Shown piece after piece: positions 42,200 through 59,942 of a stretch of DNA of 64,000 nt. The notes beneath the pieces were generated by a model, which was given only the letters and a program-made list of their open reading frames with translations, ran no database searches and had not been told where the DNA came from. The stretch comes from Escherichia phage vB_EcoM_UP17, in the sequence record LR746137; one strand, 5' to 3'. Positions within the stretch are counted from its first letter, which is position 1. Each line of letters begins with the position of its first letter. Made by a program: the position numbers and the translations under genes.

Positions 42200-44353
42200 A
42201 TGAAACAAGCTATATTTACTGTCACGCGAGACAAGAGAGTAAATGCGAGTTCATTTAACTACACGACTGTTGATGGAACAGCAGTCGCTGGTAGAGATTA
42301 TATTGCAAAATCGGGAACACTTGTGTTCCCTGATGATGCTGATTCTGCTACCATTGTGGTTGAAGTATTTGAACGACCAAAGAACTCAATAGATCTTAAC
42401 TTCTCCCTCCAAGTTTCAGGGATTAGTCAAAATAATATGATGGTTGAAACAACCATCAATTGTATTATAACTACTATCCAAGAAAATACCACTCCAATAA
42501 CTTGGACTACAAAAGACGTTAAAATGTTCTCTCCTATGTATTGGACAATAGATTCTCAAGCAACGGAAAGTTGTTCTATTGTATCTCATGGAGACTCTTT
42601 TACTGCAAGATTTGTAAACAGAACAACAGCAGGTTTGGCAGGGGTTATCTGGAGCACAGTTGACAAATATGACCATAAAGGTGTTGGGTATTTACCCCAC
42701 ACAGATTTAAGTTCAGAGAAACTTTGGTTTAAAATGGAAATTAGTCAAAACATGCCAGGTTTTAAAGAAGAACCTTTGGTGCCGACTTTGACTGTAACTC
42801 TCCTGGATAAAAGTGTTCATTATGTCAGTTTAGGATTCTACGCTTCAGATATTTCAGAAGATGGTAAAACAGCTACAATCAAGTTAGATTTTGGTAATAT
42901 CTTTTCTGGCCCTAATAATGATATTCCTTTGGATATGAGTGCTGTAGATAATATTTTCTTCTCTTTGATTACAGCAAGGTATGAAGAAATAGAAGAGGTT
43001 GTACCTATTGACAGTCAAGAGGCTTGGTTTACTTTCACTCTTCTTGAACCTACTTCTGGTTACAGTATGATGAAAGTCAGCAACCTTGTCCAGCCTGAAC
43101 ATGATATTCGCATGTGCACATCTTATGATGATATGTATAACCTGACTCCAGAGAGAGTTATTTATAATACATATGCACTAGGTTATCGTGGAATGATTAA
43201 CCATTACAACGGAATGTCTCACTATTATGAGTTCTCATGGAACGGAACATCTTGGGCTTTAAATAGATCTGTTTTCCTGAATCCGGCTACAGAAGCTTGG
43301 CTTAACAGTTTCCATTCTATAGCTAATGAAAATGGCTACACAATAATGAACTCTTTGAGTTTTGAGTTGATGAGCACAGTTTGTCCTGTAGAATGGGTTC
43401 AACATGATTGGAACGATGCTCTTGCAGCAACAGGTTATGAGCCGCCTAGTTATGTGTTATCTCCAACTATTGACGAAGGTATGGAATATTTGCAAAATGT
43501 TATTAATAAAATAGCATCTATTTCGCAAGCTAATAATATTCCAGTTGTCATTCAAATTGGTGAGCCTTGGTGGTGGTATAATACAGCAAGTAAAATGCCT
43601 TGCATATATGATTACACTACCAAACTGGCATTCAACACAGAAACAGGTTTATTTGCACAAGATGCAGGAACAATAGATAATTATAAAACAGGAACGCCGT
43701 TTGACGAATACTATGCATTTTTGTCTCGTAAACTAGGATTAAGAGTTACAAAGTTTGCAACAGATACTAGAGCAACTTACCCAGGAGCCAAGGTAACATT
43801 GCTTCCGTTCTTGCCATCAATTATCGGCAACGGTTTGATGGAGAAAGTTAACTTCCCGTCTGATTACTACATTCCTGAAGCTTTTGATTTTTATTGTTCA
43901 GAGTGTTACGACTGGCTTCTGGAAGGTAAAATGATGAAAGCATTCGATGCAATTACCATACCACATGAAAAATTAGGTTTTGAATATTCTGATATTCACT
44001 ATCTTTCGGGTTTTGTTCCAGATGCTACTCTTGCACCTTTGTATGGCTTCGATCCTGAATCAAACTACCGCACGTATCTTTGGAAAATGATTATAGGTAA
44101 TATAGTGTTGAACGCCAATAAGTTCAATGGGCTTACACAATATATATGGGCCTATCCTCAAATAATGCATGATTCCATCACGGTAGTTAATTCTCAATCC
44201 CAAGTTTTCTATATGGGTAATGTGCCTTTGAATTGTTATTTGCAAGATATCACTCTTAAACAGGTAAATGTTGAGATTGCCACTATAAGTGGAATTACAT
44301 TAGCCACTAAATCTGGAGAAGATTTAGTAACAACACAAAAATTTTATATATAG
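42200..44353 (+). CDS. tail fibre/baseplate protein with N-terminal Calx-beta-like segment (717 aa)
   Basis: N-terminal AVAGRDYIAKSGTLVFPDDADSATIVVEVF resembles the Calx-beta motif. Confidence 0.4.
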   Translation: MKQAIFTVTRDKRVNASSFNYTTVDGTAVAGRDYIAKSGTLVFPDDADSATIVVEVFERPKNSIDLNFSLQVSGISQNNMMVETTINCIITTIQENTTPITWTTKDVKMFSPMYWTIDSQATESCSIVSHGDSFTARFVNRTTAGLAGVIWSTVDKYDHKGVGYLPHTDLSSEKLWFKMEISQNMPGFKEEPLVPTLTVTLLDKSVHYVSLGFYASDISEDGKTATIKLDFGNIFSGPNNDIPLDMSAVDNIFFSLITARYEEIEEVVPIDSQEAWFTFTLLEPTSGYSMMKVSNLVQPEHDIRMCTSYDDMYNLTPERVIYNTYALGYRGMINHYNGMSHYYEFSWNGTSWALNRSVFLNPATEAWLNSFHSIANENGYTIMNSLSFELMSTVCPVEWVQHDWNDALAATGYEPPSYVLSPTIDEGMEYLQNVINKIASISQANNIPVVIQIGEPWWWYNTASKMPCIYDYTTKLAFNTETGLFAQDAGTIDNYKTGTPFDEYYAFLSRKLGLRVTKFATDTRATYPGAKVTLLPFLPSIIGNGLMEKVNFPSDYYIPEAFDFYCSECYDWLLEGKMMKAFDAITIPHEKLGFEYSDIHYLSGFVPDATLAPLYGFDPESNYRTYLWKMIIGNIVLNANKFNGLTQYIWAYPQIMHDSITVVNSQSQVFYMGNVPLNCYLQDITLKQVNVEIATISGITLATKSGEDLVTTQKFYI

Positions 44354-44361
44354 GAGTAAAA

Positions 44362-46428
44362 ATGTCAACTACAATTACTAATTTACCCGAAACATCAAAA
44401 GTTAATGGTTCTGATTACCTGGTTTTAGATCAACCTGATAAGACTGTTAAAAGCACAGTTTCCAACTTTCTTACTGATACTGGGGTGGTTTTAGCCACCC
44501 AGTTGAAAGATACAAATGGAGCAGATTTAATACAATCCTCAAATGGTAATACTGTTCAGGAAGAGTTGAATAACAATCTTCTTAATGATCGTGAACAGTG
44601 GCGGCGTAGTCTTGCCGAGGCTGGGTTAACTCTTGTTGATGGTAGTTTTGAAGAAGGGGCTACAGTGGGCAGTGTAACTGATGCTGTTTGGCACATTGCT
44701 GGTGGACAGTGTTATACATGGGACGGTGCTCTCCCTAAAACTGTTCCTGCTGACTCAACCCCTGAATCATCTGGTGGGGTTGGTGGCAGGAAGTGGGTTA
44801 GTGTTGGTGATGCGTCTTTAAAGACCATGCTTTATGGGTGGCAGGGCTATTCATTCATTGACGGTGGCAACTTATCATTATACAAAAAGAAAGGTATCTT
44901 TGGTGATTCAGGAGCAATTCAAGATAAATACGAAGTAATTAAATATTCTGATGGGTTCTGGTATAAATATAACAACTCATTGCCATTCTCTTATGGTTCA
45001 GCCCCTGATTCCACTTGGACTAACGTAGGTAAGCTGAATGGTTTTGACGAGAATACCCCAGAGAATTTCGGGGCGGTTGTAAATAACAGTACGTATGACT
45101 GCCTGGATGCCATCAACAAGGCAATGGCGACTGGATTTTTACGACTCACTGCTGGTGCTACTTATTTTGTTAGCGATGAAGTTGTTATCCCATCGAATTT
45201 AGTGATGGAAACAAACGGCGCAACCATTAAAGCGATGAGTGGATATTCATGGGGCGGAAAGGCTGTAGTTCGAGCCAGCAAAAAACCAGTAGGAACATCC
45301 CCGGATCTTTCATTGCCTGAACAACAAGTTCGTGGAATTAGGCACATTGGTACATTAAATATTGATGCTAACAATGTTGCGCCTTACGGTTTTTATGGTT
45401 TTGGTGTAGTTGCAGAATCTACCACAGACATTATATATGCTTATAATGCCACAGAAGTTGGAATTGTACTTCTTGGGAGTTGGTATCATAAAGTAAATCA
45501 ATATATGGCAATTGATTGTGCACGAGGTGTATCTTTGGCACATGGTTTCTCCGGTGAAACCGGAGACGTAAACGTTAATGGTGTTGAATTTGGTGTCGTC
45601 GCTGCGTATAACACATCAAAATCTTTGTCCTATGGGTATGATCCGTATTCATCATCTTTAACCCCACAGCTCATAGGTGCCGGTGTCACTCTCGGACAAG
45701 GATTGGCATCAAGAATAGGAACATTAATAGCTGAAACCACAGCAGGCGCTGGTTTAGCTACTGTTAACGCCGTTAGTTGGTCTGTTGGTTCTATGTACTT
45801 CGGAAAATGCAGTGAAGCGCTTGAAGATAGTGCAGAGCCTGATATTGCGATATTATCAACTACAGGAAATGTTGAGGACCACGTATTTGACGTCGGTAAT
45901 ATCCATTTTGGCATAGGGACTGGTATACTGCAAAGAGCAACGGCAAGTGAGTTTCTCAACATCCAATCCATATACCGTATAGACAATAAAAAAACATGGC
46001 ATAGTTCTTCAAAAGCGTCTTCAAGTTTTGTAAATTTCGTAAACTATTACGTTCTCAATCCTTATGATTACGTTAAACCTGCCCAACTGACTACTGACGT
46101 TGGCAAAGAGGTTGTCAGTTCATCGTCAATGCTTAACTTTAAGGATTTTTCAAATACACCAAGTATACCTTTTGTATACACTGGAGGTGAGATAGCGATT
46201 CACGTTTCCATCTCTTCCGGTAGTGTAGTATCTACTGAATTCCAGGTGACTTCTGATTCAGGAATAGAATACATCACATGCACTGGCTCGCCTTTTCAGT
46301 TTAACCTTACGCAGCCGAGGACGGTAGGTAATACCTATACCGTGACGCTAGCAACTGCGCAATCGGCAGCTTCCGGTCAAGGGGCGATACATATACTGAA
46401 ACAAAAACCAAGCCAATGGCTTAGGTAA
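44362..46428 (+). CDS. tailspike with pectate-lyase-like (beta-helix) domain
   Basis: NTPENFGAVVNNSTYDCLDAINKAMA resembles the tailspike Pectate_lyase_3 entry motif; N-terminal region shares the anchor motif YxWxGxxPKxVPAxSTP with two other fibre genes. Confidence 0.45.
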   Translation: MSTTITNLPETSKVNGSDYLVLDQPDKTVKSTVSNFLTDTGVVLATQLKDTNGADLIQSSNGNTVQEELNNNLLNDREQWRRSLAEAGLTLVDGSFEEGATVGSVTDAVWHIAGGQCYTWDGALPKTVPADSTPESSGGVGGRKWVSVGDASLKTMLYGWQGYSFIDGGNLSLYKKKGIFGDSGAIQDKYEVIKYSDGFWYKYNNSLPFSYGSAPDSTWTNVGKLNGFDENTPENFGAVVNNSTYDCLDAINKAMATGFLRLTAGATYFVSDEVVIPSNLVMETNGATIKAMSGYSWGGKAVVRASKKPVGTSPDLSLPEQQVRGIRHIGTLNIDANNVAPYGFYGFGVVAESTTDIIYAYNATEVGIVLLGSWYHKVNQYMAIDCARGVSLAHGFSGETGDVNVNGVEFGVVAAYNTSKSLSYGYDPYSSSLTPQLIGAGVTLGQGLASRIGTLIAETTAGAGLATVNAVSWSVGSMYFGKCSEALEDSAEPDIAILSTTGNVEDHVFDVGNIHFGIGTGILQRATASEFLNIQSIYRIDNKKTWHSSSKASSSFVNFVNYYVLNPYDYVKPAQLTTDVGKEVVSSSSMLNFKDFSNTPSIPFVYTGGEIAIHVSISSGSVVSTEFQVTSDSGIEYITCTGSPFQFNLTQPRTVGNTYTVTLATAQSAASGQGAIHILKQKPSQWLR

Positions 46429-46661
46429 AACAAAACCCCGCTTCGGCGGGGAAATTATAAAGGTACGATCAGGGACTTCATTACGATTCACACAAACTAT
46501 GTCCTGCAAGCGCATGTCATCGCCATGTGATAAAATGATGAAAACATATCGTAGCAGGGTTAATCTTGTCTTTAGTTACTATCGTACTAACTCAAAGTGT
46601 TGTCACTACCACTGCAAGCCCCTCCAAAGAGGGGCTTACTTAGAAAAACAAAGAGGTTGTT

Positions 46662-46811
46662 ATGAATGAAATGTTCTCCCAAGGCGGTATTGCCCCAGGT
46701 ATTACTGCCATTAGTTTTAGTGCTGCTGTACTTGTGCATTCAGCGGGTTCTGTAGACCTTGGGGAATTAACTGTATCTCGTGATTTAAAAAGTAATGAGA
46801 ACGCACTATGA
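46662..46811 (+). CDS. small ORF (49 aa), not in track
   Basis: ATG behind AAAGAGG; ATGA-coupled to the next ORF; mildly hydrophobic core GIAPGITAISFSAAVLV. Confidence 0.25.
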   Translation: MNEMFSQGGIAPGITAISFSAAVLVHSAGSVDLGELTVSRDLKSNENAL

Positions 46812-47050
46812 GAAAGTTTTTAATCGGAATGTTTTGTACTTATCCAAACAACAAAATCAGTTCTACTAAAGTGTGGAACGCACTGGGAATGCTAACCATG
46901 ACAGGCATGTTTATCTTTTTAGGAATAGAAAAAGAAATTCCTGAATGGATGGGTTGGGCTTTTGTTTTCATGATAACTCCTTCTCGCCTCATGAAAAATC
47001 TTATTGATTTACGCTGGGGCAGATCACAATCTACCAAAGAGGATGACTAA
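46808..47050 (+). CDS. small two-TM membrane protein (80 aa)
   Basis: Hydrophobic segments FLIGMFCTY and MTGMFIFLGI...WMGWAFVFMI; stop overlaps the start of the gpJ-like gene. Confidence 0.35.
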   Translation: MRKFLIGMFCTYPNNKISSTKVWNALGMLTMTGMFIFLGIEKEIPEWMGWAFVFMITPSRLMKNLIDLRWGRSQSTKEDD

Positions 47051-48537
47051 TGGACGAATATGGTTTGACAGATGCGGGATTTGTAATCCCGACTTTTGAC
47101 GATGTTTTAAACAATTATATGACAGCAGTAAAAAACACATTTGGTGCAGATGCAGCCACTTCGGAAGATACTGTGATCGGACAACTGTTTAGAATAATTG
47201 CATACACAGATTACACATTGTGGGAAGGTATGCAAGGTGTTTATAATACTCAAACACTGGATGGTGCAGAAGGTATTTATCTTGACGAAATCTTTTCTAA
47301 ACGCGGTTTCTATCGAGCAGGGGCAGCAGCAAGTACAGGTTATGCCTATGTTAAGAGTAATAACAAAGCAGCTTGGACTTATGAGCTAGGCACGGATATT
47401 TACTTCAACTCTGACAGTGATATGAACTACTATGTTAGCACACCAACTATGTTGAATGCTAAGATTGCAGCTTATCAAATCTCTCGTGCTAATGCAACTG
47501 CTACAGGTGTTCCAAATATTACTTTTTATGCACAAAGTGCGGTGGATGGAGGACTAAACAGTAAAACACTTGCACCTGGTTCTTCTACATTTATAACAGA
47601 TCTTGAAACTTTTATCAAGGCAAATTTAACAGAAGCTGATCGTAGTCTTGTATTTTCTGATTCAGGTAACTTATCAATTGGTTTTACTTCTTTAACCAGT
47701 GATACTCCAGTGGGACTAGTAACTCCTATCAAATTTTATGCCAGTGTTCCAGTTGGAACCAAATGGAGTGAAATTCCAGTAGTTGCAGCAGAGAAAGGAT
47801 ACAATCCTGTTGGTGTGGAGTCTATTACAGGGATATCTTCTACCTTTACAGGTTATCTTGACAGTGGTAACTTTTATTCATTTTCTCCTGGTCGGGATGT
47901 TGAGACAGACGCAGAATTCCGCTCTCGTTTCAATGACAACGTTGATGAAGCTAACGCAGGGACACGAGCAGCTATTGTGAAAGCTCTGCTACTTACAGAT
48001 GGTGTTACTAAGGTGAAGATTTATGATAACCCTACATTACATGATCAAGAACATGCTCCAGCTATGACTTTCCAGACTATAGTTTATGGTGGCAGTGCAG
48101 AAGAAATTGCAAATGTTATCTATAAAACCAAACCAATCAACACTTTGACGCACGGAACAACTAACATAACAGTTACAACAGAAGATGGAGGACAAGAAAT
48201 TATTCGCTTCTCTCCTGGTGCTTCTGCTATGTATTCCGTAAAACTTGTTTATCAAACTGTCAACGGAACAACTTTAAGTGGAACAGAAAAACAAAACATC
48301 GTAGAAGCTTTACAAAACCTGCAAGCTTACTTTGAGTTAGGTTCTTCAGTAACGAACGATCAAATCAAAGGTGTTATTTATGCAGCACTTGCTTTTGGAC
48401 GCTTGACTTCTCTTCGTGTTTATGTTAAACTTAATACTGAGGATGACAGTAAATACACAGAGAATAATATAGTTCCTGCTTATAATGTTGTCCCTTCTTT
48501 TGACCTTGATAACATTTCTTACGAGTATGGAGTGTAA
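47050..48537 (+). CDS. baseplate J-like protein
   Basis: GRDVETDAEFRSRF matches the conserved Baseplate_J G.D.E.D...R.R pattern; followed by gpI/H/G-like genes. Confidence 0.5.
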   Translation: MDEYGLTDAGFVIPTFDDVLNNYMTAVKNTFGADAATSEDTVIGQLFRIIAYTDYTLWEGMQGVYNTQTLDGAEGIYLDEIFSKRGFYRAGAAASTGYAYVKSNNKAAWTYELGTDIYFNSDSDMNYYVSTPTMLNAKIAAYQISRANATATGVPNITFYAQSAVDGGLNSKTLAPGSSTFITDLETFIKANLTEADRSLVFSDSGNLSIGFTSLTSDTPVGLVTPIKFYASVPVGTKWSEIPVVAAEKGYNPVGVESITGISSTFTGYLDSGNFYSFSPGRDVETDAEFRSRFNDNVDEANAGTRAAIVKALLLTDGVTKVKIYDNPTLHDQEHAPAMTFQTIVYGGSAEEIANVIYKTKPINTLTHGTTNITVTTEDGGQEIIRFSPGASAMYSVKLVYQTVNGTTLSGTEKQNIVEALQNLQAYFELGSSVTNDQIKGVIYAALAFGRLTSLRVYVKLNTEDDSKYTENNIVPAYNVVPSFDLDNISYEYGV

Positions 48538-48539
48538 AA

Positions 48540-49169
48540 ATGGCAGTGAGTGTTGACCATGTAACAACTTGGGCCAGTATCAATGAAGATGTTAAAAACC
48601 TTCTGATTGAAGATTTTAAATCTTCTCCTAACATTGTCAAGCTCCTCTACATCGTATCCAGTGAAAAGCAAAAGATAGATCAGGCAATGATCTATCTTGC
48701 TAAACACCGCTTGATCTCCACAGCCACAGGCAAATACCTAGATATCTTAGGAGAAGAAATGGGGATCGAACGTAATGGCTCTGATGATGAAGAGTATAGA
48801 ACAATATTAAAAATCAGGGCTTACCGCGTAGCCTCATCGGGGACTCGTGGTGACATAATTGATATCTTCGCCCGTTTCACAGGAACAGAGCGTGAAACGC
48901 TTAATACTTACGTAGGTTTGAATAAAACCTTTGATGTGTTTTTCTACAACCTGTGTCTTCAATCTGATCAAGCTTTAGAGCAGTTGCTAAGTGTTTTCCC
49001 TATTATTAGTAGCTACCGTCTTGGAGCAAAAGCAGGATCAGCTTTTGGTTTTAGTTCTTATTATGCTACCAAACCGCCTCATGGTATTGGTGGTTTAGGT
49101 TCCCTGTACATGGAATCTACTGGGGATGAAACAGGACGCATGTGTACGCTTCTCAAGCAAATAGATTAA
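48540..49169 (+). CDS. baseplate protein, gpI-like position (209 aa)
   Basis: Immediately downstream of the J-like gene. Confidence 0.35.
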   Translation: MAVSVDHVTTWASINEDVKNLLIEDFKSSPNIVKLLYIVSSEKQKIDQAMIYLAKHRLISTATGKYLDILGEEMGIERNGSDDEEYRTILKIRAYRVASSGTRGDIIDIFARFTGTERETLNTYVGLNKTFDVFFYNLCLQSDQALEQLLSVFPIISSYRLGAKAGSAFGFSSYYATKPPHGIGGLGSLYMESTGDETGRMCTLLKQID

Positions 49170-49178
49170 GGAGTTTAA

Positions 49179-50240
49179 ATGGCGAAGCCAATATATTATC
49201 CTGACTGGGCTACACAAACTGTAACGCTCCCAGGAACTTTAAACACAAACAAAATTAGACCTAAAGAAACCATCCGCACAGTTGGTATGGATTATGGTCA
49301 AATCATGACTTGCGAAGAAATGAACTGGATTCTTAATAATATCGGTTTATGGATTCGCTATTTGGTGGATGATTTTCTTCCAACTTTACCTAATACCTAC
49401 TTGCCTTTAGTGGGAACTAAGATTACAATGGCAGGTGATGCTACTGGTGAGGCCACTTGGAACGGTAACAAAGAAGTTACTTTATCTATCCAAGTTCAAG
49501 ATAACAGTCATAATCACTTGTCAGCAAACATTACAGATGCTACTAGTTCAACAGTAACACCAAACGTGTTGGTAAAACGTGATGCGGGTGGTGCTATTTA
49601 TGGTGGCGATGTTTATGTTAACGGTACTTCCACAACAGATCCTGCAACACTGTTCTTCAAAAACTTTGCAGGACAAACAAATGGTGAGATTTCTGCCGAG
49701 TATCAAAGCGGAGGTCAGCTTTACATCTATCGTAGAAATCCTAGCACAGGTAGTGTATCGGCAGGTGTTCGTTTATATGATGCAGGTTATGTTCTAATAG
49801 ATAATCCAAGATCGAACAGTGGACAAGATACTTCTAACGGAAATGCTTTAGTTCGTTTAGATTATCTGAACTCTCGTTTGACTTCCCTTCAGAACACATT
49901 GCAGACGAATATTAACACTGTTCAAAACAACTTGAATAATGTTAACAACAACCTCTCTTCTCGTATAAACAATGTAGAAAGTAATCATCAAAGCCAGATT
50001 ACAAATAACTACAACTATGCTAACGGAACCTTTGTAAGAGATATTCGTTATACTAGCCAAGGTGTGTATTATCCACCAGGGAACGAGGTTTCTTGGACTT
50101 ATATCTGTTCTTCTGGTTATGTTCTTTCTGGTATTATCGTACAGGAAACAGGACGTAGCTCTGCGGATAACATCGGTGGGGTTTACTTCAAACGCCTCCA
50201 GCGCAACGTTAACGGAAACTGGTACGATATTGGAGGCTAA
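49179..50240 (+). CDS. tail fibre protein, gpH-like position (353 aa)
   Basis: Asn/Gln/Thr-rich repetitive shaft (NSRLTSLQNTLQTNINTVQNNLNNVNNNL). Confidence 0.45.
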   Translation: MAKPIYYPDWATQTVTLPGTLNTNKIRPKETIRTVGMDYGQIMTCEEMNWILNNIGLWIRYLVDDFLPTLPNTYLPLVGTKITMAGDATGEATWNGNKEVTLSIQVQDNSHNHLSANITDATSSTVTPNVLVKRDAGGAIYGGDVYVNGTSTTDPATLFFKNFAGQTNGEISAEYQSGGQLYIYRRNPSTGSVSAGVRLYDAGYVLIDNPRSNSGQDTSNGNALVRLDYLNSRLTSLQNTLQTNINTVQNNLNNVNNNLSSRINNVESNHQSQITNNYNYANGTFVRDIRYTSQGVYYPPGNEVSWTYICSSGYVLSGIIVQETGRSSADNIGGVYFKRLQRNVNGNWYDIGG

Positions 50241-50786
50241 ATGATATTTACAAACTTTAAAAAATATATTCCTGAAGACCCTGAACTAAAAGAATTGGTA
50301 GAAGCAGAGAACATTCTTTTTCTTCGTTGCGATCAAGGTTACGATTGGTATGATTTACGTAGCACAGAATTCAATAACGATAAAATGAAAGTCGTTTTTG
50401 ATGATCAAAATCGTATTGTGTTTTGGAATACTGATCCTACACTACTTTGCCCTGAAGATCTTTCTATAGCACAAGTAGACTTTAATATAGATACTTTTGA
50501 GGATATTAGGAACAAGGTTCTGGATTTAGAAACCTTAACTCTTAAGGATAAAGAGTATTCCTGTGAAGAGTTGATGACACAAGCTAGTGCAAAAATTCGC
50601 TCTTTACAAGAAACAGCGGTAGCACTTATAACACCTTTACAGTATGCTAAAGATTTAGAAATGGCTACTGAAGACGAATTAGCTTATCTTAAAAATCTTC
50701 AAGTTTATGTAGTTAAACTAAATCGTGTTCCGCTTCAAAAAGACTATCCTTACGCTATAGATTGGCCTACATTACCGACAGAATAA
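50241..50786 (+). CDS. tail fibre assembly protein candidate (181 aa)
   Basis: Follows the fibre gene as gpG does in P2-like modules. Confidence 0.3.
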   Translation: MIFTNFKKYIPEDPELKELVEAENILFLRCDQGYDWYDLRSTEFNNDKMKVVFDDQNRIVFWNTDPTLLCPEDLSIAQVDFNIDTFEDIRNKVLDLETLTLKDKEYSCEELMTQASAKIRSLQETAVALITPLQYAKDLEMATEDELAYLKNLQVYVVKLNRVPLQKDYPYAIDWPTLPTE

Positions 50787-50795
50787 GGGATCACT

Positions 50796-51131
50796 ATGGA
50801 ATTTCAAGAAGCATGGGGACTTGCAAAGGATGCAATAATCCCTTTAATCGGAGTCATCTGGTTCTTTTTCAAACAAAAAATGGATAAATTCGGCTCTGAT
50901 CTTGAGGAAATGGAGGAGAAAAGTCGAGAGCTAGAGAAGAAGTTGGTCTTTGTTGAATCAACTTATGCAACTAAAGCCGAACTTACCCAGATGCTAAATC
51001 AAATTAACTCTACATTAATGGCAAATAATAACACTCTTGAGCAAAAAATTGAAAAGATTATGGACCTCAAGAATGCGACTATCCAAATGATGCTAGATGA
51101 CATAGTTAAACGTACACAGAATAAGGGGTAA
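50796..51131 (+). CDS. small membrane-anchored coiled-coil protein (111 aa)
   Basis: One N-terminal TM (AIIPLIGVIWFFF) then a charged coiled coil. Confidence 0.3.
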   Translation: MEFQEAWGLAKDAIIPLIGVIWFFFKQKMDKFGSDLEEMEEKSRELEKKLVFVESTYATKAELTQMLNQINSTLMANNNTLEQKIEKIMDLKNATIQMMLDDIVKRTQNKG

Positions 51132-51134
51132 TTA

Positions 51135-54100
51135 ATGGCAACATTCCCAACGTATCCAGCAACGTCTCTTGAACAGGGCGTAGATCTGGTTATTTTCTCG
51201 TCCAATCAACTTCATGATGTTATTAATGGAAGTGCGACAGAAAGTATTGAGACAGAATCAGGGTTGATACCAACCCTGAGAAAAGCCCTTGTTGATAACT
51301 TTTTCTTTAAAAGCCCATTGGATTGGGCGCAAGGCACAAATGAAACGGTTTTTAACCAACTACGTTATTTTCAGAATGGGGTATTGAGCGGTTATTATTA
51401 TGCTCCTAATGCTACATTGGTAAACCCAATCCCTATGCAAGGTACTCCAGTAGGAGATAACAACTGGGTATTGTGGGGATTGAAGACAGAACAATTGGCA
51501 ACAGAAGTCACACCTTGGGTATATTCTGGTGCAACTGGTTATGAAACAGTAATCAGTCCTCCTTACATCTTTGATAGTGCTATTGTTACGATCAATGGTG
51601 TTATTCAGGTTCTGGGGGAAGCTTTCCGTATAGAAGATAGTAAGATCATCTTATCTGAACCTTTGGGACACGATCCTGCAACAGGACTGCCAAACAAGCT
51701 TTTCGCTTATATTGGTAAAATCGTAGCTTCAGCAGATACAGATCCTAATCTAGAGAACCGTCTTGTTAGTTTAGAAACAAAAACGGAAGAACTAACAGAA
51801 AGCATGGATAAAGTCCCTCTGCAAACTATTGCTCGTAAATATGGTTTGTTAGATGGTGAGGTGGCTTACGCAACAGCAGGTCAATCGTTAACAGGGATTA
51901 AAGCTCTGTATGATCCGGTAGCACAGTCTTCCTACACATTACCTCCTAACATCACAGGAACTTTAACATCTTTGTCTGTTTCTGGAGTAATGACTTATTC
52001 TGGAGGGTCTGTAGATCTTTCTGCACTAGCTGTTGAACGTGGACAGTTTGTCCATTTGCCTACAAGCTTTGGTAATAATGTAACTCTGACAGCTAAAAAT
52101 CAGACGATTGGACGTGGTGCTGGTCGTTATCGTTGGGCTGGAAGTTTACCAAAAAGTATTTTGGCCTCTGACACATTAGAGACAAGCGGTGGATTAGGTC
52201 CAAACGCATGGGTTCTAACTAATACGGAAGGACTGTTAACCCCTCGTGGTGGAACATACAACGATTTATTCGATGTTGTCTACTTGTCAGAATTTGCTAA
52301 CAATACAACTACCTATACCACACCAGAAGCAGCTTTCCAGGCGGCACTGTTAGCAGCAAAAGCTTCGAAAAGTAAGATTCTCGATGCTTACGGTTGCGAT
52401 ATGACTTTCACGACAAGCTCTTTTGATATTCAAGGTATCACTTTGCGTGGTGGTGTGTTCCGTGGTCAACGCGACTATCGTGTGCAGAATGCTACAGTAG
52501 AAGGCACAACTTTCCGTAACTCTCGTGTTATGTATTGGGGTGGTGCTGTGCGCATGTTCGATTGTTTGTGGGACGGTGCTCCTCGCGCAGGTCAAGTTGG
52601 TAGCTTGGTATTCCAAGGCAACCCAATATCAGGTACTTTTGAAATTGATAATTGTACTTTTAAAAACGGGTTATATGGCATCCTTCAACAAGGGACAGGA
52701 GAACCAGTAACACGCGGTGTCTTCCGTAACCTTACCTTCATGGACATGCAAGGTGATGCGATAGAACTGAACGTCATCAATAAACATTATGATGATGGTT
52801 GTGTGATTGAGAATATTTACCTGTCTAATATCGATGGGACTAACGCTCCTATTCCTCTGTCCAACTGGGGTATCGGTATCGGTGTAGCTGGTAAAGGACC
52901 ATATGGTTACGGAATCCCTGATGATCAATATTGCAAGAATATTACAATTCGTAACGTTTTTGCAAAACGTTGCCGTCAGATTGTCCACGTAGAAGTTGGT
53001 CGTAATATTTCTATCGAAAACATTCATGGCGATCCAGATCAAACCGTATCTGTTGGGACAGGTTTGGCAACTGGCGCAGTTGTAATGTATGGAAGTAAAG
53101 ATTTTACGATTGACGGTGTTTATGGAGAGCCTAAAACAGACGGTAGCACACTTGCAAGTAATATCCGTATGATTTATTTGGAGTGGGGAACTAACGCAGT
53201 TCTGGACGAAGAGGGTAATCCGGTAGTTCCGGCACAGGGTAGACCTTCAAACCCATGCTTTAACTATTCTGTTCGTAACATTCACACCAAAACTGGGCGT
53301 GTTTTTGCGGGAGTTTCCGCTGGGCCAGGTTATGAAAACAGAGTTAGCTTTGAAAATATTCGTTGCGCTGCATTGCAGTTGTTCGGTATAGCTTCTTGGC
53401 TTTCAATGTCTAACATCACCTGTAATATCTTCGATTGTGTTGGTCAACCTGAATCTGGTCCAGGGACATTTTATGATGGATTCTTCCGTAGAGAAAAATC
53501 TGTTCTTGAAATGGTTAACGTAAACTGTTACCCAGATGGCAAGACGATGGTTACTGGTCGTCCACAGTGGAGCCGTTGCCGTTACTCGGATATTCATCGT
53601 GTCAACTGTAATGTTGAAGCTAATATGTATACCAATATCGCAGGTGGTATTGGAGCTATTGTAGGGACAACGGGCAAAGTTTATTACTTAGAGCCTAATC
53701 CTAGTCGAAACATTGATGGAATGCATTTCCCAACAGGGAAAGAGTTTGACAAAGGTGATATGATAGTCAAGGCGGATAATACGTTCTTCCTTGTAACAAC
53801 AAGTGGGGCATATATTCCAGATATCCCAGCTTTCGGTATTCGAGCTACACAAGCAGGAGATACCTTCCTGACACAGAACTTGACTCCTAACGGGACAGCA
53901 ACAAATGCTTCTTGGTTGTATCATTACCCTCTGTCAGCAGGGACACGTATCCGTATTCCTGGTGCTGGCGTAGGTGGAGCAGATTTGGACACAGTTATTA
54001 CTCGTGCACCTTATCAAGATAATGATACGTGGACTAACCCAGTTAAAATAGACATTGCAGATCCAATTGTAACGCCTACAAGTGCTGGAGTTAGAATTAA

Positions 54101-54188
54101 AACCATACCTAATGATTCCAGTAATGTTTCTGTAGGTAATACTGCGGTTATTCGCCCAACGCCAGTAGTAGATGTGCCAACAACCTAA
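51135..54188 (+). CDS. tailspike with parallel beta-helix-like repeats (1017 aa)
   Basis: Short Asn/Gly-rich repeats (NCTFKNG, FRNLTFMDMQGDAIELN, IENIYLSNIDG); internal anchor motif YRWAGSLPKSILASDTLETSGG. Confidence 0.45.
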   Translation: MATFPTYPATSLEQGVDLVIFSSNQLHDVINGSATESIETESGLIPTLRKALVDNFFFKSPLDWAQGTNETVFNQLRYFQNGVLSGYYYAPNATLVNPIPMQGTPVGDNNWVLWGLKTEQLATEVTPWVYSGATGYETVISPPYIFDSAIVTINGVIQVLGEAFRIEDSKIILSEPLGHDPATGLPNKLFAYIGKIVASADTDPNLENRLVSLETKTEELTESMDKVPLQTIARKYGLLDGEVAYATAGQSLTGIKALYDPVAQSSYTLPPNITGTLTSLSVSGVMTYSGGSVDLSALAVERGQFVHLPTSFGNNVTLTAKNQTIGRGAGRYRWAGSLPKSILASDTLETSGGLGPNAWVLTNTEGLLTPRGGTYNDLFDVVYLSEFANNTTTYTTPEAAFQAALLAAKASKSKILDAYGCDMTFTTSSFDIQGITLRGGVFRGQRDYRVQNATVEGTTFRNSRVMYWGGAVRMFDCLWDGAPRAGQVGSLVFQGNPISGTFEIDNCTFKNGLYGILQQGTGEPVTRGVFRNLTFMDMQGDAIELNVINKHYDDGCVIENIYLSNIDGTNAPIPLSNWGIGIGVAGKGPYGYGIPDDQYCKNITIRNVFAKRCRQIVHVEVGRNISIENIHGDPDQTVSVGTGLATGAVVMYGSKDFTIDGVYGEPKTDGSTLASNIRMIYLEWGTNAVLDEEGNPVVPAQGRPSNPCFNYSVRNIHTKTGRVFAGVSAGPGYENRVSFENIRCAALQLFGIASWLSMSNITCNIFDCVGQPESGPGTFYDGFFRREKSVLEMVNVNCYPDGKTMVTGRPQWSRCRYSDIHRVNCNVEANMYTNIAGGIGAIVGTTGKVYYLEPNPSRNIDGMHFPTGKEFDKGDMIVKADNTFFLVTTSGAYIPDIPAFGIRATQAGDTFLTQNLTPNGTATNASWLYHYPLSAGTRIRIPGAGVGGADLDTVITRAPYQDNDTWTNPVKIDIADPIVTPTSAGVRIKTIPNDSSNVSVGNTAVIRPTPVVDVPTT

Positions 54189-54193
54189 TGGAA

Positions 54194-54212
54194 TAGAGGG
54201 GGAATCCCCCTC
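54194..54212 (+). terminator. hairpin terminator after the tailspike gene
   Basis: AGAGGGGG-AAT-CCCCCTCT followed by a T-rich tract. Confidence 0.4.
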
Positions 54213-54249
54213 TTCTTCCAATAGAATGGTCTAATGATAGGAGAGATAA

Positions 54250-56274
54250 ATGAATTTAACAAGACCTAATAGTGCGATAGCCGATCTGGTAGAAGCTACT
54301 TATCGAAAACGTCGCAGCTTTGAGGCAGGTTTTACATTACGTAATTCCCGTGAAGTTTTGCTGTTAGCAGCAGAAGGGAATTATTACCAATGGAAAGGAA
54401 CTTTTCCTAAAGTAGTTCCAGCAAACTCTACGCCAGCCACCACAGGTGGTATTTCTTCCCTTGCATGGCAAAGTGTTGGGACCGCTGATGATATAGCAAT
54501 TATCAATGCCAAGTTTACGGCAATGCAGCAACAAATTGATGATCTGTCGGAAACAATACCTGAAGCTGGTAAATCGGCTTATCAGATCGCACTTGATAAT
54601 GGTTTTGTTGGAACAGAAGCACAATGGCTTGCCTCTTTGAAAGGGGATACTGGTGCTCAACTTAATATTAAAGGATCGTTAGCAAGCACTAGTGAACTAC
54701 CATCCACAGGTAACGTTGCAGGGGATGGTTATATCGTAGGTGATGTAATCTACGCTTGGGATGGTTCTGTTTGGAAACTTATTTCTTCTCTTGGGCCAGA
54801 AGGTAAATCAGCTTACGAGGTATGGTTGGCAGATGGTAATACAGGATCTGTTTATGATTTTCTTACCTCTATAAAAGGTGATAAAGGTGATGTTGGTCCT
54901 ACAGGGCCACAGGGAGCACCTGGTGTTAACGCCAACGGTTTTGATTATCGTGGGGATTTGCCTTCTACAAGTAACTTACCACAACCTAACTCTGAAAACG
55001 TAAGCCAAGCTTATTCTATCAATGGTAATCTTTATGTCTCTAACGGGACAGCTTGGGTCAACATGGGTAATATTGTTGGTCCTCAAGGTCCACAAGGTGA
55101 GGCAGGTAAAGACGGTCTTGATGGAACAGATGGAGATGAAGGGAAATCTGCATATCAAAGTTGGCTGGATGCTGGTAATGAAGGGACAGAAGTGGATTTT
55201 ATTGCCTCACTTAAAGGTCCAAAAGGAGACAAGGGTGATCAAGGAGAGCGAGGTCCACAAGGTGAACTAGGTCCACAAGGACCAGTGGGTGCAACAGGAT
55301 CAGGCTTAGAGATTATCGGGGTTCTGAACAGTGAAGCTGAACTTCCTCCTACTGGAGAAGTAGGTGATGCATATAAAATTAATAATGATTTGTATGTTTG
55401 GGTTCAAGATGCTACGGAATGGATGAATGTTGGCAGTCTTGGAGGAACATCAATTACAGCTAAAGGTCATGTTCCGAACAGTGAAGCTCTCCCTGTTTAT
55501 AATAACTATGGCGATGCCTACTTAACTGAAGACACCAGTAATCTTTACATCTATACCTACGATCAAGACACCAATTCCGCATCTTTTGTTGACATGGGAA
55601 GTATTAAAGGCGACAAAGGTGAAAAAGGGGATAAAGGGGATAAGGGTGATCCTGGAACAAATGGAACCAACGGTACTGATGGGACCAACGGTAAGGACGG
55701 CGCACAGTGGTTTGTAGCAACAACTAATCCAGTCGCAGGAGACGGTGTTATCAATGATTACGCCTTCAATACTACCACTGGAGCAGTGTTTAAGAAAACA
55801 GATTCTTCTACGTGGACACTTATAGGAACTCTTCCTAGTATACCAGAAGCCCCTCAAGACGGCTTGACGTATGGTCGTTCTGATGGAAACTGGATCGAAA
55901 TATCAGGATCAGATCCTACAGAAGCTATAACACCAACTAGAGTTACAGCAGGTTTCATGGAACTTGAAACAACTACTGCCAACTCTGGAGCATCTTGGAC
56001 TCCTTCTGGAACTTCCAATATGTATGTTGTTACAGTAACTGATGCTCTGACAGTTGGAGCATGGCCTGGTGTCACTGGCTCTACAAAACCTAAAGCGTTT
56101 TCAGCAATGATTTATTTGATTCAAGATACAACGGGACACACGGTTACACTAGATGCGTCTTATGGAGCACTAAATGATACAGAAATAGCAACTACTGCTA
56201 ACGCAGTAACAATTTTGCAATTAACGTATCCTGGTGTGGGTGATATCGTGGACATGGTTGTTGTAACACGATAA
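54250..56274 (+). CDS. collagen-like tail fibre protein (674 aa)
   Basis: Gly-X-Y tracts (GDKGDVGPTGPQGAPG, GPQGPQGEAGKDGLDGTDGDEG, GERGPQGELGPQGPVG); three tandem GKSAYxxWLxxGNxGT modules; N-terminal anchor motif YYQWKGTFPKVVPANSTPATTGG. Confidence 0.55.
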   Translation: MNLTRPNSAIADLVEATYRKRRSFEAGFTLRNSREVLLLAAEGNYYQWKGTFPKVVPANSTPATTGGISSLAWQSVGTADDIAIINAKFTAMQQQIDDLSETIPEAGKSAYQIALDNGFVGTEAQWLASLKGDTGAQLNIKGSLASTSELPSTGNVAGDGYIVGDVIYAWDGSVWKLISSLGPEGKSAYEVWLADGNTGSVYDFLTSIKGDKGDVGPTGPQGAPGVNANGFDYRGDLPSTSNLPQPNSENVSQAYSINGNLYVSNGTAWVNMGNIVGPQGPQGEAGKDGLDGTDGDEGKSAYQSWLDAGNEGTEVDFIASLKGPKGDKGDQGERGPQGELGPQGPVGATGSGLEIIGVLNSEAELPPTGEVGDAYKINNDLYVWVQDATEWMNVGSLGGTSITAKGHVPNSEALPVYNNYGDAYLTEDTSNLYIYTYDQDTNSASFVDMGSIKGDKGEKGDKGDKGDPGTNGTNGTDGTNGKDGAQWFVATTNPVAGDGVINDYAFNTTTGAVFKKTDSSTWTLIGTLPSIPEAPQDGLTYGRSDGNWIEISGSDPTEAITPTRVTAGFMELETTTANSGASWTPSGTSNMYVVTVTDALTVGAWPGVTGSTKPKAFSAMIYLIQDTTGHTVTLDASYGALNDTEIATTANAVTILQLTYPGVGDIVDMVVVTR

Positions 56275-56278
56275 CAGA

Positions 56279-56303
56279 AGCCCCGAAAGGGGCTTTCTTT
56301 TTA
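56279..56303 (+). terminator. rho-independent terminator
   Basis: AGCCCC-GAAA-GGGGCT followed by TTCTTTTTAT. Confidence 0.5.
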
Positions 56304-56315
56304 TGGAGGGTTTAA

Positions 56316-58991: not shown

Positions 58992-58998
58992 TAAAAAA

Positions 58999-59026
58999 GG
59001 GAACCCGCAAAGGTTCCCTTTTCTTT
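58999..59026. terminator. bidirectional terminator between convergent fibre and ssb genes
   Basis: GGGAACC-CGCAAA-GGTTCCC hairpin flanked by AAAAAA and TTTTCTTTT. Confidence 0.55.
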
Positions 59027-59054
59027 TATAAAAACTCTTTATAAATCAATAAGA

Positions 59055-59942
59055 TTAGAATGGGATATCATCGTCGAAGTCCATTGGAGGTTCTTCTTGA
59101 TTGCTTGGAGTTGGTTCTGGTTGTGGTTCAGGTTTCTTCTCTTCTTTCTTCTCTTCTTTCTTAGGTTGTTCTGCGGAACCACGAATGGCAGCAGCAACTT
59201 TATCAGACAGAGCCAGAACTTTACGAGCAGAGTCAATCAGATCTTCTACAGATACAGTCTTAATGGTATGGTCTTTACAAGCATTGAGAATAGCGTGACC
59301 AACAGATGCCCCAAGATCATAATCATTAATATCAACGCCACGAGATTCAGCAATTTCAGATTTCAGCGTGACAGTTGCAGATTGAACAACCCCAGCGATA
59401 TCGAAAGCATCGCCTTTAACACCATTACGAATCAGTTCCAGTGCACCATTTACTGCGTGACCAGTTTCCAGACCTACAGTATCACGTTTTTTATAGGACT
59501 GCTTAGGAGCAGCATCGTTGGAACCTTTATTGCCAGAAGATTTGTTAGACTTCTGAACACCATCGGTAGACAATACTGTAATACGAGATTTTTTAGTATT
59601 GTAGTAAGTCTTACCGCCTTTATTATCAACGCGATCAATATCAATACTTACTTCTACACCTTTTTCAATAGTGATCCAATTATCACCTTCTTTGACTTGC
59701 AGGTTTTCATAACCTTCTTTCAGTTCAATGTCACCAAGAGAAATCCAAACACCTTTCTCATCTGGTTTAGCACCTTTCTCTTTCAGAACAAGAGAAGCTC
59801 GGTGAGTTGAAACAATCGTTTTCCCTTCCCAATGAAAAGTTTTAGGTTCAGCGAATTTATCCAGTTTAACGTAGTCTACGATACCAGTTGCATAAGTTAC
59901 GGTTTTGCCTTTACGATCAGTTTCAGTATTAATTACGGACAT
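59055..59942 (-). CDS. ssb: single-stranded DNA-binding protein
   Basis: C-terminus PPMDFDDDIPF is the canonical bacterial-type SSB acidic tip; Gly/Lys/Pro-rich linker precedes it. Confidence 0.75.
   Translation of the reverse strand: MSVINTETDRKGKTVTYATGIVDYVKLDKFAEPKTFHWEGKTIVSTHRASLVLKEKGAKPDEKGVWISLGDIELKEGYENLQVKEGDNWITIEKGVEVSIDIDRVDNKGGKTYYNTKKSRITVLSTDGVQKSNKSSGNKGSNDAAPKQSYKKRDTVGLETGHAVNGALELIRNGVKGDAFDIAGVVQSATVTLKSEIAESRGVDINDYDLGASVGHAILNACKDHTIKTVSVEDLIDSARKVLALSDKVAAAIRGSAEQPKKEEKKEEKKPEPQPEPTPSNQEEPPMDFDDDIPF

What the first reader, a model, noticed from the sequence alone, without database searches (positions are those of the whole stretch)
44680..54460. Shared anchor motif YxWxGxxPKxxxAxSTxxxxGG in three different fibre proteins
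CYTWDGALPKTVPADSTPESSGGVG (44362 gene, near aa 110), YRWAGSLPKSILASDTLETSGGLG (51135 gene, near aa 335) and YYQWKGTFPKVVPANSTPATTGGIS (54250 gene, near aa 50) are clearly related at the protein level although the rest of each protein differs. This suggests a common docking module by which interchangeable receptor-binding domains attach to the baseplate.
Basis: seen in the sequence. Interest (0 to 1): 0.45.

Follow-up and report, generated by a model that had tools for sequence, protein, structure and literature searches.

The report
Known tailspike head domain, shared thrice
The motif shared by three tail proteins of this phi92-like E. coli phage is the core of an already catalogued small "head" domain of phage tailspikes (Pfam PF18668, domain D2 of the CBA120 tailspikes); it sits at the joint between each protein's own attachment region and its swappable receptor-binding part, and is not itself the baseplate dock in at least two of the three.

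Summary
The motif [YFW]xWxGxxPKxxxAxxTxxxxGG occurs exactly three times in the six-frame translation (44713-44778, 52128-52193, 54385-54450) and never in 100 shuffles. It is the core of a ~65-residue domain. All three copies pass Pfam PF18668 (Tail_spike_N) and match solved structures: domain D2 of CBA120 TSP1/3/4 and G7C gp63.1.

The docking interpretation holds only loosely.
- **Gene A (44362):** same-slot proteins in related phages share only aa 1-54 and lack the domain.
- **Gene B (51135):** aa 11-127 match the phiTE long-tail-fibre N-terminus, which is seen in situ on the baseplate wedge. Nineteen homologues of this anchor lack the motif.
- **Gene C (54250):** only here is the domain N-terminal, so only here could it dock.

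The domain occurs in more than 1000 phage genomes with unrelated tails, at variable distances from the N-terminus and often in tandem.

Exchange breakpoints fall at its edges. Gene A's body is about 96% identical to a spike carrying a siphophage-type (Kagunavirus-like) N-terminus, with the crossover at the end of D2. Gil et al. 2023 already proposed this region as a recombination hotspot.

Verdict: a known domain, best read as a junction module. Low interest.

The parts
44362..46428 (+). Gene A, 688-aa tailspike in the variable spike slot upstream of the wedge genes
   Evidence: ORF; PF18668 at 63.9 bits; 99% identical to Dompiswa phage TSP7_1.
44362..44523 (+). Gene A aa 1-54: lineage-specific slot anchor (inferred attachment element)
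   Evidence: 94-96% identical to the first 54 aa of the endosialidase-type proteins in the same slot of phages nepoznato and SF1-1. Those proteins then diverge completely and lack PF18668.
44632..44823 (+). Gene A aa 91-154: D2-type head domain (PF18668); motif core at 44713-44778
   Evidence: Pfam match at 93-150. PDB matches: 8x8m E 1.7e-22, 5w6h, and 4oj5 residues 99-168. DNA identity to Ro121c4YLVW falls from 97-100% to 63-80% at codon ~111 and to random after codon ~152.
44800..46425 (+). Gene A aa ~147-688: exchangeable receptor-binding body
   Evidence: The BLASTP alignment to P0059 (661 aa) spans aa 95-688 at 92% identity and is nearly identical from aa ~147 on. P0059's first 130 aa are those of Kagunavirus-like siphophage spikes. 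The body is unrelated to the Ro121c4YLVW spike in the same slot.
46662..46811 (+). 49-aa ORF: decayed stub of a D1 head domain (scar of an earlier spike cassette)
   Evidence: The full 102-aa version in Ro121c4YLVW matches CBA120 TSP1 aa 1-94 at E 3.6e-49 and ends at the D1/D2 boundary. The window copy has an internal deletion.
51135..54188 (+). Gene B, 1017-aa colanic-acid-degrading tailspike (phi92 gp150 homologue)
   Evidence: PDB 6e0v E 1.4e-79 over aa 426-1000; phrog_6117.
51135..51488 (+). Gene B aa 1-118: baseplate anchor of the phiTE long-tail-fibre type
   Evidence: phmmer against 9cuy_g residues 14-132, E 2.7e-19. Foldseek against 9CUY, E 4e-10. The family appears as PF26208 Phage_phiTE_241_N in precomputed annotations of the homologues. 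This region of the phiTE fibre is modelled in situ on wedge 2A and the sheath initiator (PMC11972413). tblastn finds aa 10-114 in 416 phage records, including rV5, PVP-SE1, CR3 and phiTE.
51498..51725 (+). Gene B aa 122-197: beta domain shared with podophage fibre/adaptor proteins; candidate branch point
   Evidence: AF2 pLDDT 73-93. A profile of this domain hits 9k4a E 3.7e-13, 23sh_r, 8vbx_R, 8es4_G (HRP29 gp44) and 7y22_e 'tail adaptor'. The whole-model Foldseek search also returns CBA120 TSP4-N (7rej, E 2.5e-3), but the aligned residues are not given. The domain's presence co-occurs with extra downstream RBP genes, 4/4 versus 0/3 loci.
51810..52037 (+). Gene B aa ~226-301: D1 head domain
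   Evidence: phmmer against 4qnl residues 20-172, 5w6f, 4oj5 residues 20-190 and 5w6h, E 1e-29 to 1e-25, spanning aa 226-372.
52038..52229 (+). Gene B aa 302-365: D2 head domain (PF18668); motif core at 52128-52193
   Evidence: Pfam 37.6 bits at aa 302-361; alignment to G7C gp63.1 including YRWAGGLPKS.
54250..56274 (+). Gene C, 674-aa collagen-repeat tail fibre (phi92 gp151 position)
   Evidence: phrog_15437; Pfam Collagen.
54271..54486 (+). Gene C aa 8-79: D2 head domain at the very N-terminus; motif core at 54385-54450
55924..56262 (+). Gene C aa 559-671: distal tip homologous to the C-terminus of the phiTE long tail fibre
   Evidence: phmmer against 9cuy_g residues 679-790, E 4.2e-8; phrog_4549 positions 751-868.

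Best explanation
The shared motif is the conserved core of the D2 'head' subdomain of CBA120/G7C-type tailspikes (Pfam PF18668). D2 is a ~60-residue unit: one helix followed by a small antiparallel beta-sandwich. It lies on the trimer axis immediately before the alpha-helical neck and the receptor-binding body.

In this Phapecoctavirus-like phage, three receptor-binding proteins each carry one copy behind a different N-terminal region. In gene A that region is a 54-residue slot anchor plus a linker. In gene B it is a phiTE-type baseplate anchor, an adaptor-like beta domain and a D1 domain. In gene C it is almost nothing.

The domain most likely works as a generic trimeric coupling. It stacks onto whatever trimeric element precedes it and caps the neck of whatever body follows. 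Because it is conserved across many phage groups, it also supplies the patch of homology in which recombination resolves when receptor-binding bodies are exchanged. Attachment to the virion is done by the lineage-specific sequences N-terminal of it.

**Shown:** homology, fold, variable position, dispensability in slots A and B, and breakpoints at its edges.
**Inferred:** the coupling role and the recombination-junction role.

For: **Not slot-specific.**
- 2338 cluster representatives carry the domain. Among the best 150, its start position ranges from residue 1 to about 400 in several discrete classes, and 57 of 150 have 2-4 tandem copies.
- tblastn finds it in more than 1000 phage records, including T7-like podophages, Ackermannviridae, Kagunavirus/Jersey-like siphophages and N4-like phages.

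**Dispensable for attachment.**
- Slot-A proteins of nepoznato and SF1-1 share aa 1-54 with gene A and have no PF18668.
- Nineteen homologues of gene B's anchor have no motif.
- In solved virions the contacts lie N-terminal of D2.

**Breakpoints at its edges.**
- Window versus Ro121c4YLVW: identity drops at codon ~111 and is lost at ~152.
- Gene A versus P0059: different anchors and D2 alleles, near-identical bodies from 'WVSVGDASLK' onward.
- The D1 stub next to gene A is truncated at the D1/D2 boundary.

Against: - No experiment or in-situ structure shows what D2 does in this phage. The phi92 cryo-EM study could not place gp150 or gp151.
- In CBA120 the whole D1-D2 head is required for TSP1 and TSP3 binding, so a contribution of D2 to docking is not excluded.
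- In gene C the domain is N-terminal and may itself be the docking surface.
- The three copies within this genome share only 50-62% nucleotide identity. They cannot drive homologous exchange with each other, and the junction role rests on a few natural chimeras rather than on measured recombination rates.
- The trimeric state was not modelled.
Confidence: 0.75

Rival explanations
1. One reading: the motif domain is a common docking module through which all three proteins plug into the baseplate.
For: The domain lies in the virion-proximal part of all three proteins. The TSP1 paper calls D1-D2 the putative virion-binding head. The CBA120 heads are required for assembly of TSP1 and TSP3 into the complex.
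Against: - Gene A and gene B have separate N-terminal anchors that are conserved without the domain.
- Gene B's anchor is homologous to a segment seen bound to the wedge in phiTE.
- In CBA120 the contact assigned experimentally is D1 to XD3. TSP2 lacks D2, and TSP4's internal head is not needed for partner binding.
- Sf11 gp13 docks through aa 4-59, ahead of its D2.
- The same domain occurs on phages with unrelated tails, and in tandem arrays.
Confidence: 0.08
2. A partial version: only in gene C does the D2 domain dock, and it docks in trans onto the adaptor-like domain (aa 122-197) of the neighbouring tailspike B. This would give a branched B-C fibre, analogous to TSP1 on TSP4 or gp63.1 on gp66.
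For: - D2 begins at residue ~8 of gene C and is conserved at that position in relatives.
- Gene B has a domain shared with podophage adaptor proteins that carry second spikes. The Foldseek search with the whole aa 1-430 model also returns TSP4-N, residues unassigned.
- Loci whose B-like protein keeps this domain have further RBP genes downstream (4/4). Those lacking it have none (0/3).
- The downstream RBPs in three of those loci start with a D1-type head.
- Gene B's N-terminus and gene C's C-terminus match the two ends of one phiTE/phrog_4549 fibre.
- The B-type and C-type N-termini occur in similar numbers of phage records, 136 versus 140.
Against: - There is no direct interaction evidence.
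- The co-occurrence sample is small and phylogenetically non-independent.
- In known branched complexes the docking face is D1, not D2.
- The 891-aa protein downstream (56316) or other tail proteins could be the partner instead.
- Complex prediction was not possible with these tools.
Confidence: 0.3
3. The domain is a carbohydrate-binding module (CBM5/12-like) that helps the spikes hold on to surface glycans. This is suggested by the Pfam name ('receptor binding') and by the published fold similarity to a chitin-binding domain.
Against: - No Pfam CBM_5_12 signal appears, even at E<=10.
- The domain sits at the virion-proximal end, far from the catalytic or binding body.
- The authors state that sugar binding by tailspike heads has never been reported.
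- Sugars soaked into TSP1 crystals bound elsewhere, in D3 and at the D3-D4 region next to D4.
Confidence: 0.07
4. The resemblance is a chance or compositional coincidence.
For: None beyond the shortness of the B-C alignment (28 aa).
Against: There were 0 matches in 100 shuffles. Pfam scores are well above the cutoff. PDB homologues reach E values as low as 1e-22.
Confidence: 0

Closest known systems
D2 head subdomain of Kuttervirus CBA120 tailspikes TSP1, TSP3 and TSP4 (PDB 4OJ5, 5W6F/6NW9, 5W6H); Pfam PF18668 Tail_spike_N
   Same: The same sequence family and fold: a helix plus a small antiparallel beta-sandwich followed by an alpha-helical neck and then the receptor-binding body. The same conserved residues (F, G, Y-x-W-x-G-x-x-P-K, S-T-P, G-G, W). 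Gene B has the full D1-D2 head placed internally, as in TSP4.
   Different: The host phage belongs to a different subfamily (Stephanstirmvirinae) with a different baseplate. Genes A and C have D2 without D1. Gene C carries it at the extreme N-terminus and follows it with a collagen-repeat fibre rather than a beta-helix enzyme.
G7C gp63.1 / gp66 and Shigella phage B2 gp48, Moo19 gp82 (N4-like podophages; PDB 4QNL, 9D80-9D84)
   Same: These carry a D1-D2 head of the same family. G7C gp63.1 aligns with gene B aa 230-372, including YRWAGGLPKS. As described in the CBA120 TSP4-N paper, G7C gp63.1 binds the XD3 domain of the virion-anchored spike gp66, giving a branched arrangement (PMC8825819).
   Different: These are podophage tails. 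The docking partner is a T4 gp10-like XD3 domain, whereas here the candidate partner domain (gene B aa 122-197) is related to the domain that follows the gp17-like N-terminus in podophage fibre/adaptor proteins and has not been shown to bind anything.
[quoted passage not shown]
   Same: The same position (end of the N-terminal region, just before the exchangeable RBD) and a phyletic pattern that fits D2: Kaguna-, Kayfuna-, Justusliebig-, Nouzilly-, Gamaleya-RBP2 and Kuttervirus, but not CBA120 RBP2. The natural chimeras found here (gene A versus P0059 and versus Ro121c4YLVW) fit their proposal.
   Different: I could not see their sequence logo, so identity of their motif with this one is inferred from position and distribution. 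They did not treat Phapecoctavirus or the collagen-type fibre.
Long tail fibre of Pectobacterium phage phiTE (PDB 9CUY chain g) and Pfam PF26208
   Same: Gene B aa 11-127 is homologous to its wedge- and sheath-initiator-binding N-terminus. Gene C aa 559-671 is homologous to its C-terminus.
   Different: phiTE has one continuous fibre with no detected D2 domain. Here the two ends lie in two genes, separated by a tailspike cassette.

Membership tests
Pfam PF18668 Tail_spike_N (D2 head subdomain of CBA120-type tailspikes) | HMM score above the curated gathering threshold (25 bits) | tested here: met
   63.9, 37.6 and 70.5 bits for genes A, B and C; 68.5, 43.1 and 74.2 bits for the isolated segments.
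Pfam PF18668 Tail_spike_N (D2 head subdomain of CBA120-type tailspikes) | Sequence homology to the structurally defined D2 (TSP1 residues 97-154) | tested here: met
   phmmer aligns A 91-162, B 230-399 and C 22-80 with 4oj5 residues 99-168, 20-190 and 102-158 respectively. It also aligns them with 5w6f, 5w6h and 4qnl.
Pfam PF18668 Tail_spike_N (D2 head subdomain of CBA120-type tailspikes) | Fold: helix plus small antiparallel beta-sandwich, followed by an alpha-helical neck | tested here: met
Pfam PF18668 Tail_spike_N (D2 head subdomain of CBA120-type tailspikes) | Homotrimeric assembly on the spike axis | not testable with these tools
   Only monomer prediction was available.
Virion/baseplate anchor (docking) domain of a receptor-binding protein | Conserved within the phage lineage for a given slot, whatever the receptor-binding body | tested here: not met
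   Gene A: nepoznato and SF1-1 keep aa 1-54 only and have no PF18668. Gene B: 19 anchor homologues have no motif. Gene C: met, since the N-terminal D2 is conserved at 63-100% identity in relatives.
Virion/baseplate anchor (docking) domain of a receptor-binding protein | Specific to one tail architecture | tested here: not met
   The same domain occurs in T7-like podophages, N4-like podophages, Ackermannviridae and Kagunavirus/Jersey-like siphophages.
Virion/baseplate anchor (docking) domain of a receptor-binding protein | Direct contact with baseplate or adaptor proteins in situ | not testable with these tools
   The phi92 cryo-EM study left gp150 and gp151 unplaced. In other phages the resolved contacts lie N-terminal of D2.
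CBM5/12 chitin-binding-type carbohydrate-binding module | Match to the CBM_5_12 sequence profile | tested here: not met
   No Pfam family other than PF18668 appears at E<=10 for any of the three segments.
CBM5/12 chitin-binding-type carbohydrate-binding module | Fold similarity to solved CBM5/12 domains | tested here: inconclusive
CBM5/12 chitin-binding-type carbohydrate-binding module | Binds polysaccharide | not testable with these tools
   This needs a binding assay.
Branching (T4 gp10 XD-like / podophage adaptor-type) domain, considered for gene B aa 122-197 | Homology to domains that carry a second trimeric RBP | tested here: inconclusive
   A profile of this domain hits 9k4a (E 3.7e-13), 8es4_G HRP29 gp44 (E 4e-6) and 7y22_e tail adaptor (E 3e-5). 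The Foldseek search used the whole aa 1-430 model and returns CBA120 TSP4-N at E 2.5e-3, probability 1.0. Which TSP4-N domain and which query residues are aligned was not reported. T4 gp10 itself (5iv5) is only a marginal hit.

The most novel reading that the evidence does not exclude
In phi92/phAPEC8-like phages the collagen-type fibre (gene C, the phi92 gp151 position) may be attached not to the baseplate but to the colanic-acid tailspike (gene B, the phi92 gp150 position). Its D1-less, N-terminal D2 head would seat in trans on gene B's adaptor-like domain (aa 122-197). This would rejoin the two halves of an ancestral phiTE-type long fibre that was split by insertion of a tailspike cassette. 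The resulting branched B-C assembly would be a candidate for the still unassigned 'fiber II' of phi92.
Probability: 0.25. Interest if true: 0.45.

Novelty: already known. Interest (0 to 1): 0.2.

Why it matters
The domain is useful as a landmark. It marks where the lineage-specific attachment part of a tailspike ends and the portable receptor-binding cassette begins, and natural chimeras show that fusions made at its edges are viable. That is directly usable for host-range engineering of phi92/phAPEC8-like therapeutic phages. The domain map produced here also gives a testable proposal for how the unplaced gp150/gp151-type appendages of phi92-like phages are mounted: gene A is anchor, linker, D2 and body; gene B is a phiTE-type anchor, an adaptor-like domain, D1-D2 and the colanidase; gene C is a D2 head on a collagen fibre. 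The motif itself is already catalogued, crystallised and discussed in the literature.

Tried and rejected
- **Chance similarity:** rejected by shuffles and Pfam/PDB statistics.
- **Recent intragenomic duplication or gene conversion among the three copies:** rejected. The cores share 50-62% nucleotide identity and give no blastn hits.
- **More copies in the window:** none in any frame.
- **Word-indexed homologue search with gene C aa 1-105:** returned nothing. With gene B aa 1-430 it returned only 19 proteins, none covering D1-D2. As a result the AF2 model of gene B is unreliable beyond aa 197 and was used only for aa 1-197.
- **Schwarzer et al. 2012 (phi92 adsorption apparatus, PMC3457257):** not held, so what that paper says about gp150/gp151 attachment could not be checked.
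- **Literature search by PDB code:** mostly noise. Only 9OCC (Sf11) and 9CUY (phiTE) were traced. The entries 8X8M, 9VVR and 9LNA remain unidentified.
- **Pfam CBM_5_12 relationship:** no signal.
- **Protein-protein complex prediction (B with C, A with its neighbours):** not possible with the single-chain predictor.
- **Promoter/terminator scan of 44000-59100:** nothing beyond chance overall.

Full report
**What the window is.** Region 44000-57000 is 97.8% identical to Dompiswa phage TSP7_1. It is about 98% identical, except for one gene, to many Phapecoctavirus genomes (Stephanstirmvirinae, the phi92/phAPEC8 group of E. coli myophages). The gene order matches the annotated tail module of phage Ro121c4YLVW: tail protein, 'non-contractile tail sheath'-like protein, tail spike, wedge proteins, short fibre and chaperone, colanic-acid-degrading spike, collagen-type fibre, large tail protein.

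**The observation.** The three quoted peptides are present in frame in the ORFs at 44362-46428 (gene A), 51135-54188 (gene B) and 54250-56274 (gene C). A regular expression for the motif finds exactly three sites in all six frames (44713-44778, 52128-52193, 54385-54450) and none in 100 shuffles. BLASTP shows the similarity extending to 57 aa (A-C, 44% identity, E 5e-10), 42 aa (A-B, E 8e-6) and 28 aa (B-C, E 7e-4), with nothing else shared. At the nucleotide level the cores are only 50-62% identical, so these are old, diverged copies.

**Domain maps of the three proteins.**
- Gene A: aa 1-54 conserved slot anchor, 55-90 linker, 91-154 D2, 155-688 body.
- Gene B: aa 1-118 anchor, 122-197 beta domain, ~226-301 D1, 302-365 D2, neck, then 426-1000 the phi92 gp150 colanidase body (6E0V, E 1.4e-79).
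- Gene C: D2 from residue ~8, a helical neck, a collagen-repeat shaft, and a distal tip (aa 559-671).

**Is D2 the baseplate dock? Gene A.** In the same-genus phage nepoznato and in phage SF1-1, the protein in the same slot shares aa 1-54 with gene A almost perfectly. It then continues into an endosialidase or pectate-lyase-type body with no PF18668 domain. The slot-specific element is therefore aa 1-54, and D2 is optional in this slot.

**Is D2 the baseplate dock? Gene B.**
- aa 11-127 are homologous to residues 14-132 of the phiTE long tail fibre (phmmer E 2.7e-19; Foldseek E 4e-10 on a confident AF2 model).
- That part of the phiTE fibre is modelled in situ, bound to wedge protein 2A. [quoted passage not shown]
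- Nineteen homologues share gene B's first 118-196 residues (annotated PF26208, Phage_phiTE_241_N). None contains the motif.
- tblastn finds the anchor alone (aa 10-114) in 416 phage records, including rV5, PVP-SE1, CR3 and phiTE.

**What other systems show.** In CBA120 the contact assigned by ultracentrifugation is TSP1 D1 onto TSP4 XD3. TSP2 has no D2, and TSP4's internal D1-D2 is not needed for partner binding (PMC8825819). In siphophage Sf11 the spike docks through N-terminal helices (aa 4-59), and its D2-like domain (61-131) lies behind them (PMC12724387).

**Distribution.**
- A profile of the three window segments finds 2338 cluster representatives (1388 at E<=1e-10).
- Among the best 150, the domain starts anywhere from residue 1 to about 400, in discrete classes: about 60, 88, 140-150, 237 and 395.
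- 57 of those 150 carry two to four tandem copies.
- tblastn finds the domain in more than 1000 phage genomes of very different tail types.

A domain used behind many unrelated anchors, and also repeated in tandem, is not a lock-and-key dock for one baseplate.

**Exchange junctions.**
- Against Ro121c4YLVW, gene A is 97-100% identical at the DNA level for codons 1-110. Identity is 63-80% for codons 111-150, which include the motif core, and unrelated after about codon 152. It resumes about 50 nt after the stop codon.
- Representative P0059 (661 aa) has a body nearly identical to gene A from 'WVSVGDASLK' onward (92% over the whole alignment, aa 95-688). Its D2 allele is different, and its N-terminus is 80-88% identical to spikes of ~47-kb Kagunavirus-like siphophages.
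- Crossovers thus lie at both edges of the motif core, and the same receptor-binding body has moved between a siphophage-type and a myophage spike.
- Gil et al. [quoted passage not shown] They proposed it as a recombination hotspot (PMC10408124). That phyletic pattern is the pattern of D2.

**Best explanation.** D2 is a generic trimeric coupling between a lineage-specific attachment region and a portable neck-plus-body cassette. Its conservation makes it the preferred place for cassette exchange. The fold, family, variable context, dispensability in two slots and breakpoints are shown. The mechanical role and the hotspot role are inferred.

**Gene C and a possible branched fibre (speculative).** In gene C, D2 is the first folded element, so it is the only candidate attachment domain. 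Several observations point to gene B as its partner.
- A profile of gene B aa 122-197 matches the domain that follows the gp17-like N-terminus in podophage fibre/adaptor proteins: 9K4A E 3.7e-13, HRP29 gp44, and the 7Y22 'tail adaptor'. The Foldseek search with the whole aa 1-430 model also returns CBA120 TSP4-N at E 2.5e-3, but the output does not say which residues align.
- Four loci whose B-like protein keeps this domain have one or two further large RBP genes downstream. Three loci where it is missing or truncated have none.
- In three of the former loci, a downstream RBP begins with a D1-type head.
- Gene B's N-terminus and gene C's C-terminus match the two ends of a single phiTE/phrog_4549 fibre.
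- The B-type and C-type N-termini occur in nearly equal numbers of phage records, 136 and 140.

This suggests that gene C rides on gene B. The sample is small and no interaction was tested. The phi92 cryo-EM study could not place gp150 or gp151, and 'fiber II' remains unassigned (PMC13450770).

**Verdict.** The domain is real and lies in the virion-proximal, conserved part of modular receptor-binding proteins. It is already known as a Pfam family, as a crystallographic subdomain and as a proposed recombination motif. It is not the baseplate-docking element of at least two of the three proteins.

Noticed in passing
window 46662-46811 (+); L001:8901-9209; L002:6015-6227: A 49-aa ORF just downstream of gene A is an internally deleted copy of a stand-alone D1 head domain. 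The intact 102-aa version in Ro121c4YLVW matches the first 94 residues of CBA120 TSP1 at E 3.6e-49 (and G7C gp63.1) and stops at the D1/D2 boundary. SF1-1 has a 70-aa truncation. It looks like a decaying scar of a Kuttervirus/Gamaleyavirus-type spike cassette, although a small D1-only 'cap' protein is not excluded.
   Followed up: partly
window 51135-51515 and 55924-56262: The N-terminus of gene B and the C-terminus of gene C match the two ends of one protein, the phiTE long tail fibre (9CUY chain g), and of one PHROG family (phrog_4549). This suggests that an ancestral single fibre gene was split by insertion of a tailspike cassette.
   Followed up: partly
window 42200-44353 (+): This 717-aa protein has a Calx-beta domain plus the N-terminal and TIM-barrel domains of the N4 gp65-type 'non-contractile tail sheath' protein (PF23844, PF23845, E 4e-79). 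It is encoded in a contractile-tailed phage, directly upstream of the variable spike.
   Followed up: no
window 56316-58991 (+): This 891-aa tail protein has an RCC1-like beta-propeller and Big_2 Ig-like domains. It is the last gene of the tail module and has no PF18668 domain.
   Followed up: no
window 46436-46451: A GC-rich hairpin (CCCCGCTTCGGCGGGG) sits 8 nt after the stop codon of gene A. DNA identity to Ro121c4YLVW resumes about 25 nt beyond it. It may correspond to the conserved downstream terminator ('motif three') that Gil et al. proposed as the second recombination boundary.
   Followed up: no
P0004, P0008 and 55 other representatives: Many tailspike proteins carry two to four tandem copies of the D2-type domain. 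For example, P0004 has copies at about 98-142, 152-215, 228-295 and 306-357. P0001, with three exact repeats of a whole N-terminal region, looks like an assembly artefact.
   Followed up: partly
L004 (Klebsiella phage 05F01), L008, L009: In relatives whose B-like protein lacks D1-D2, a downstream RBP begins MQLTQPKG.VSKETNKEAIARV.GLKK, which is a D1-type head without D2. The head type (D1 only, D2 only, or D1-D2) therefore varies among otherwise similar tail modules.
   Followed up: partly
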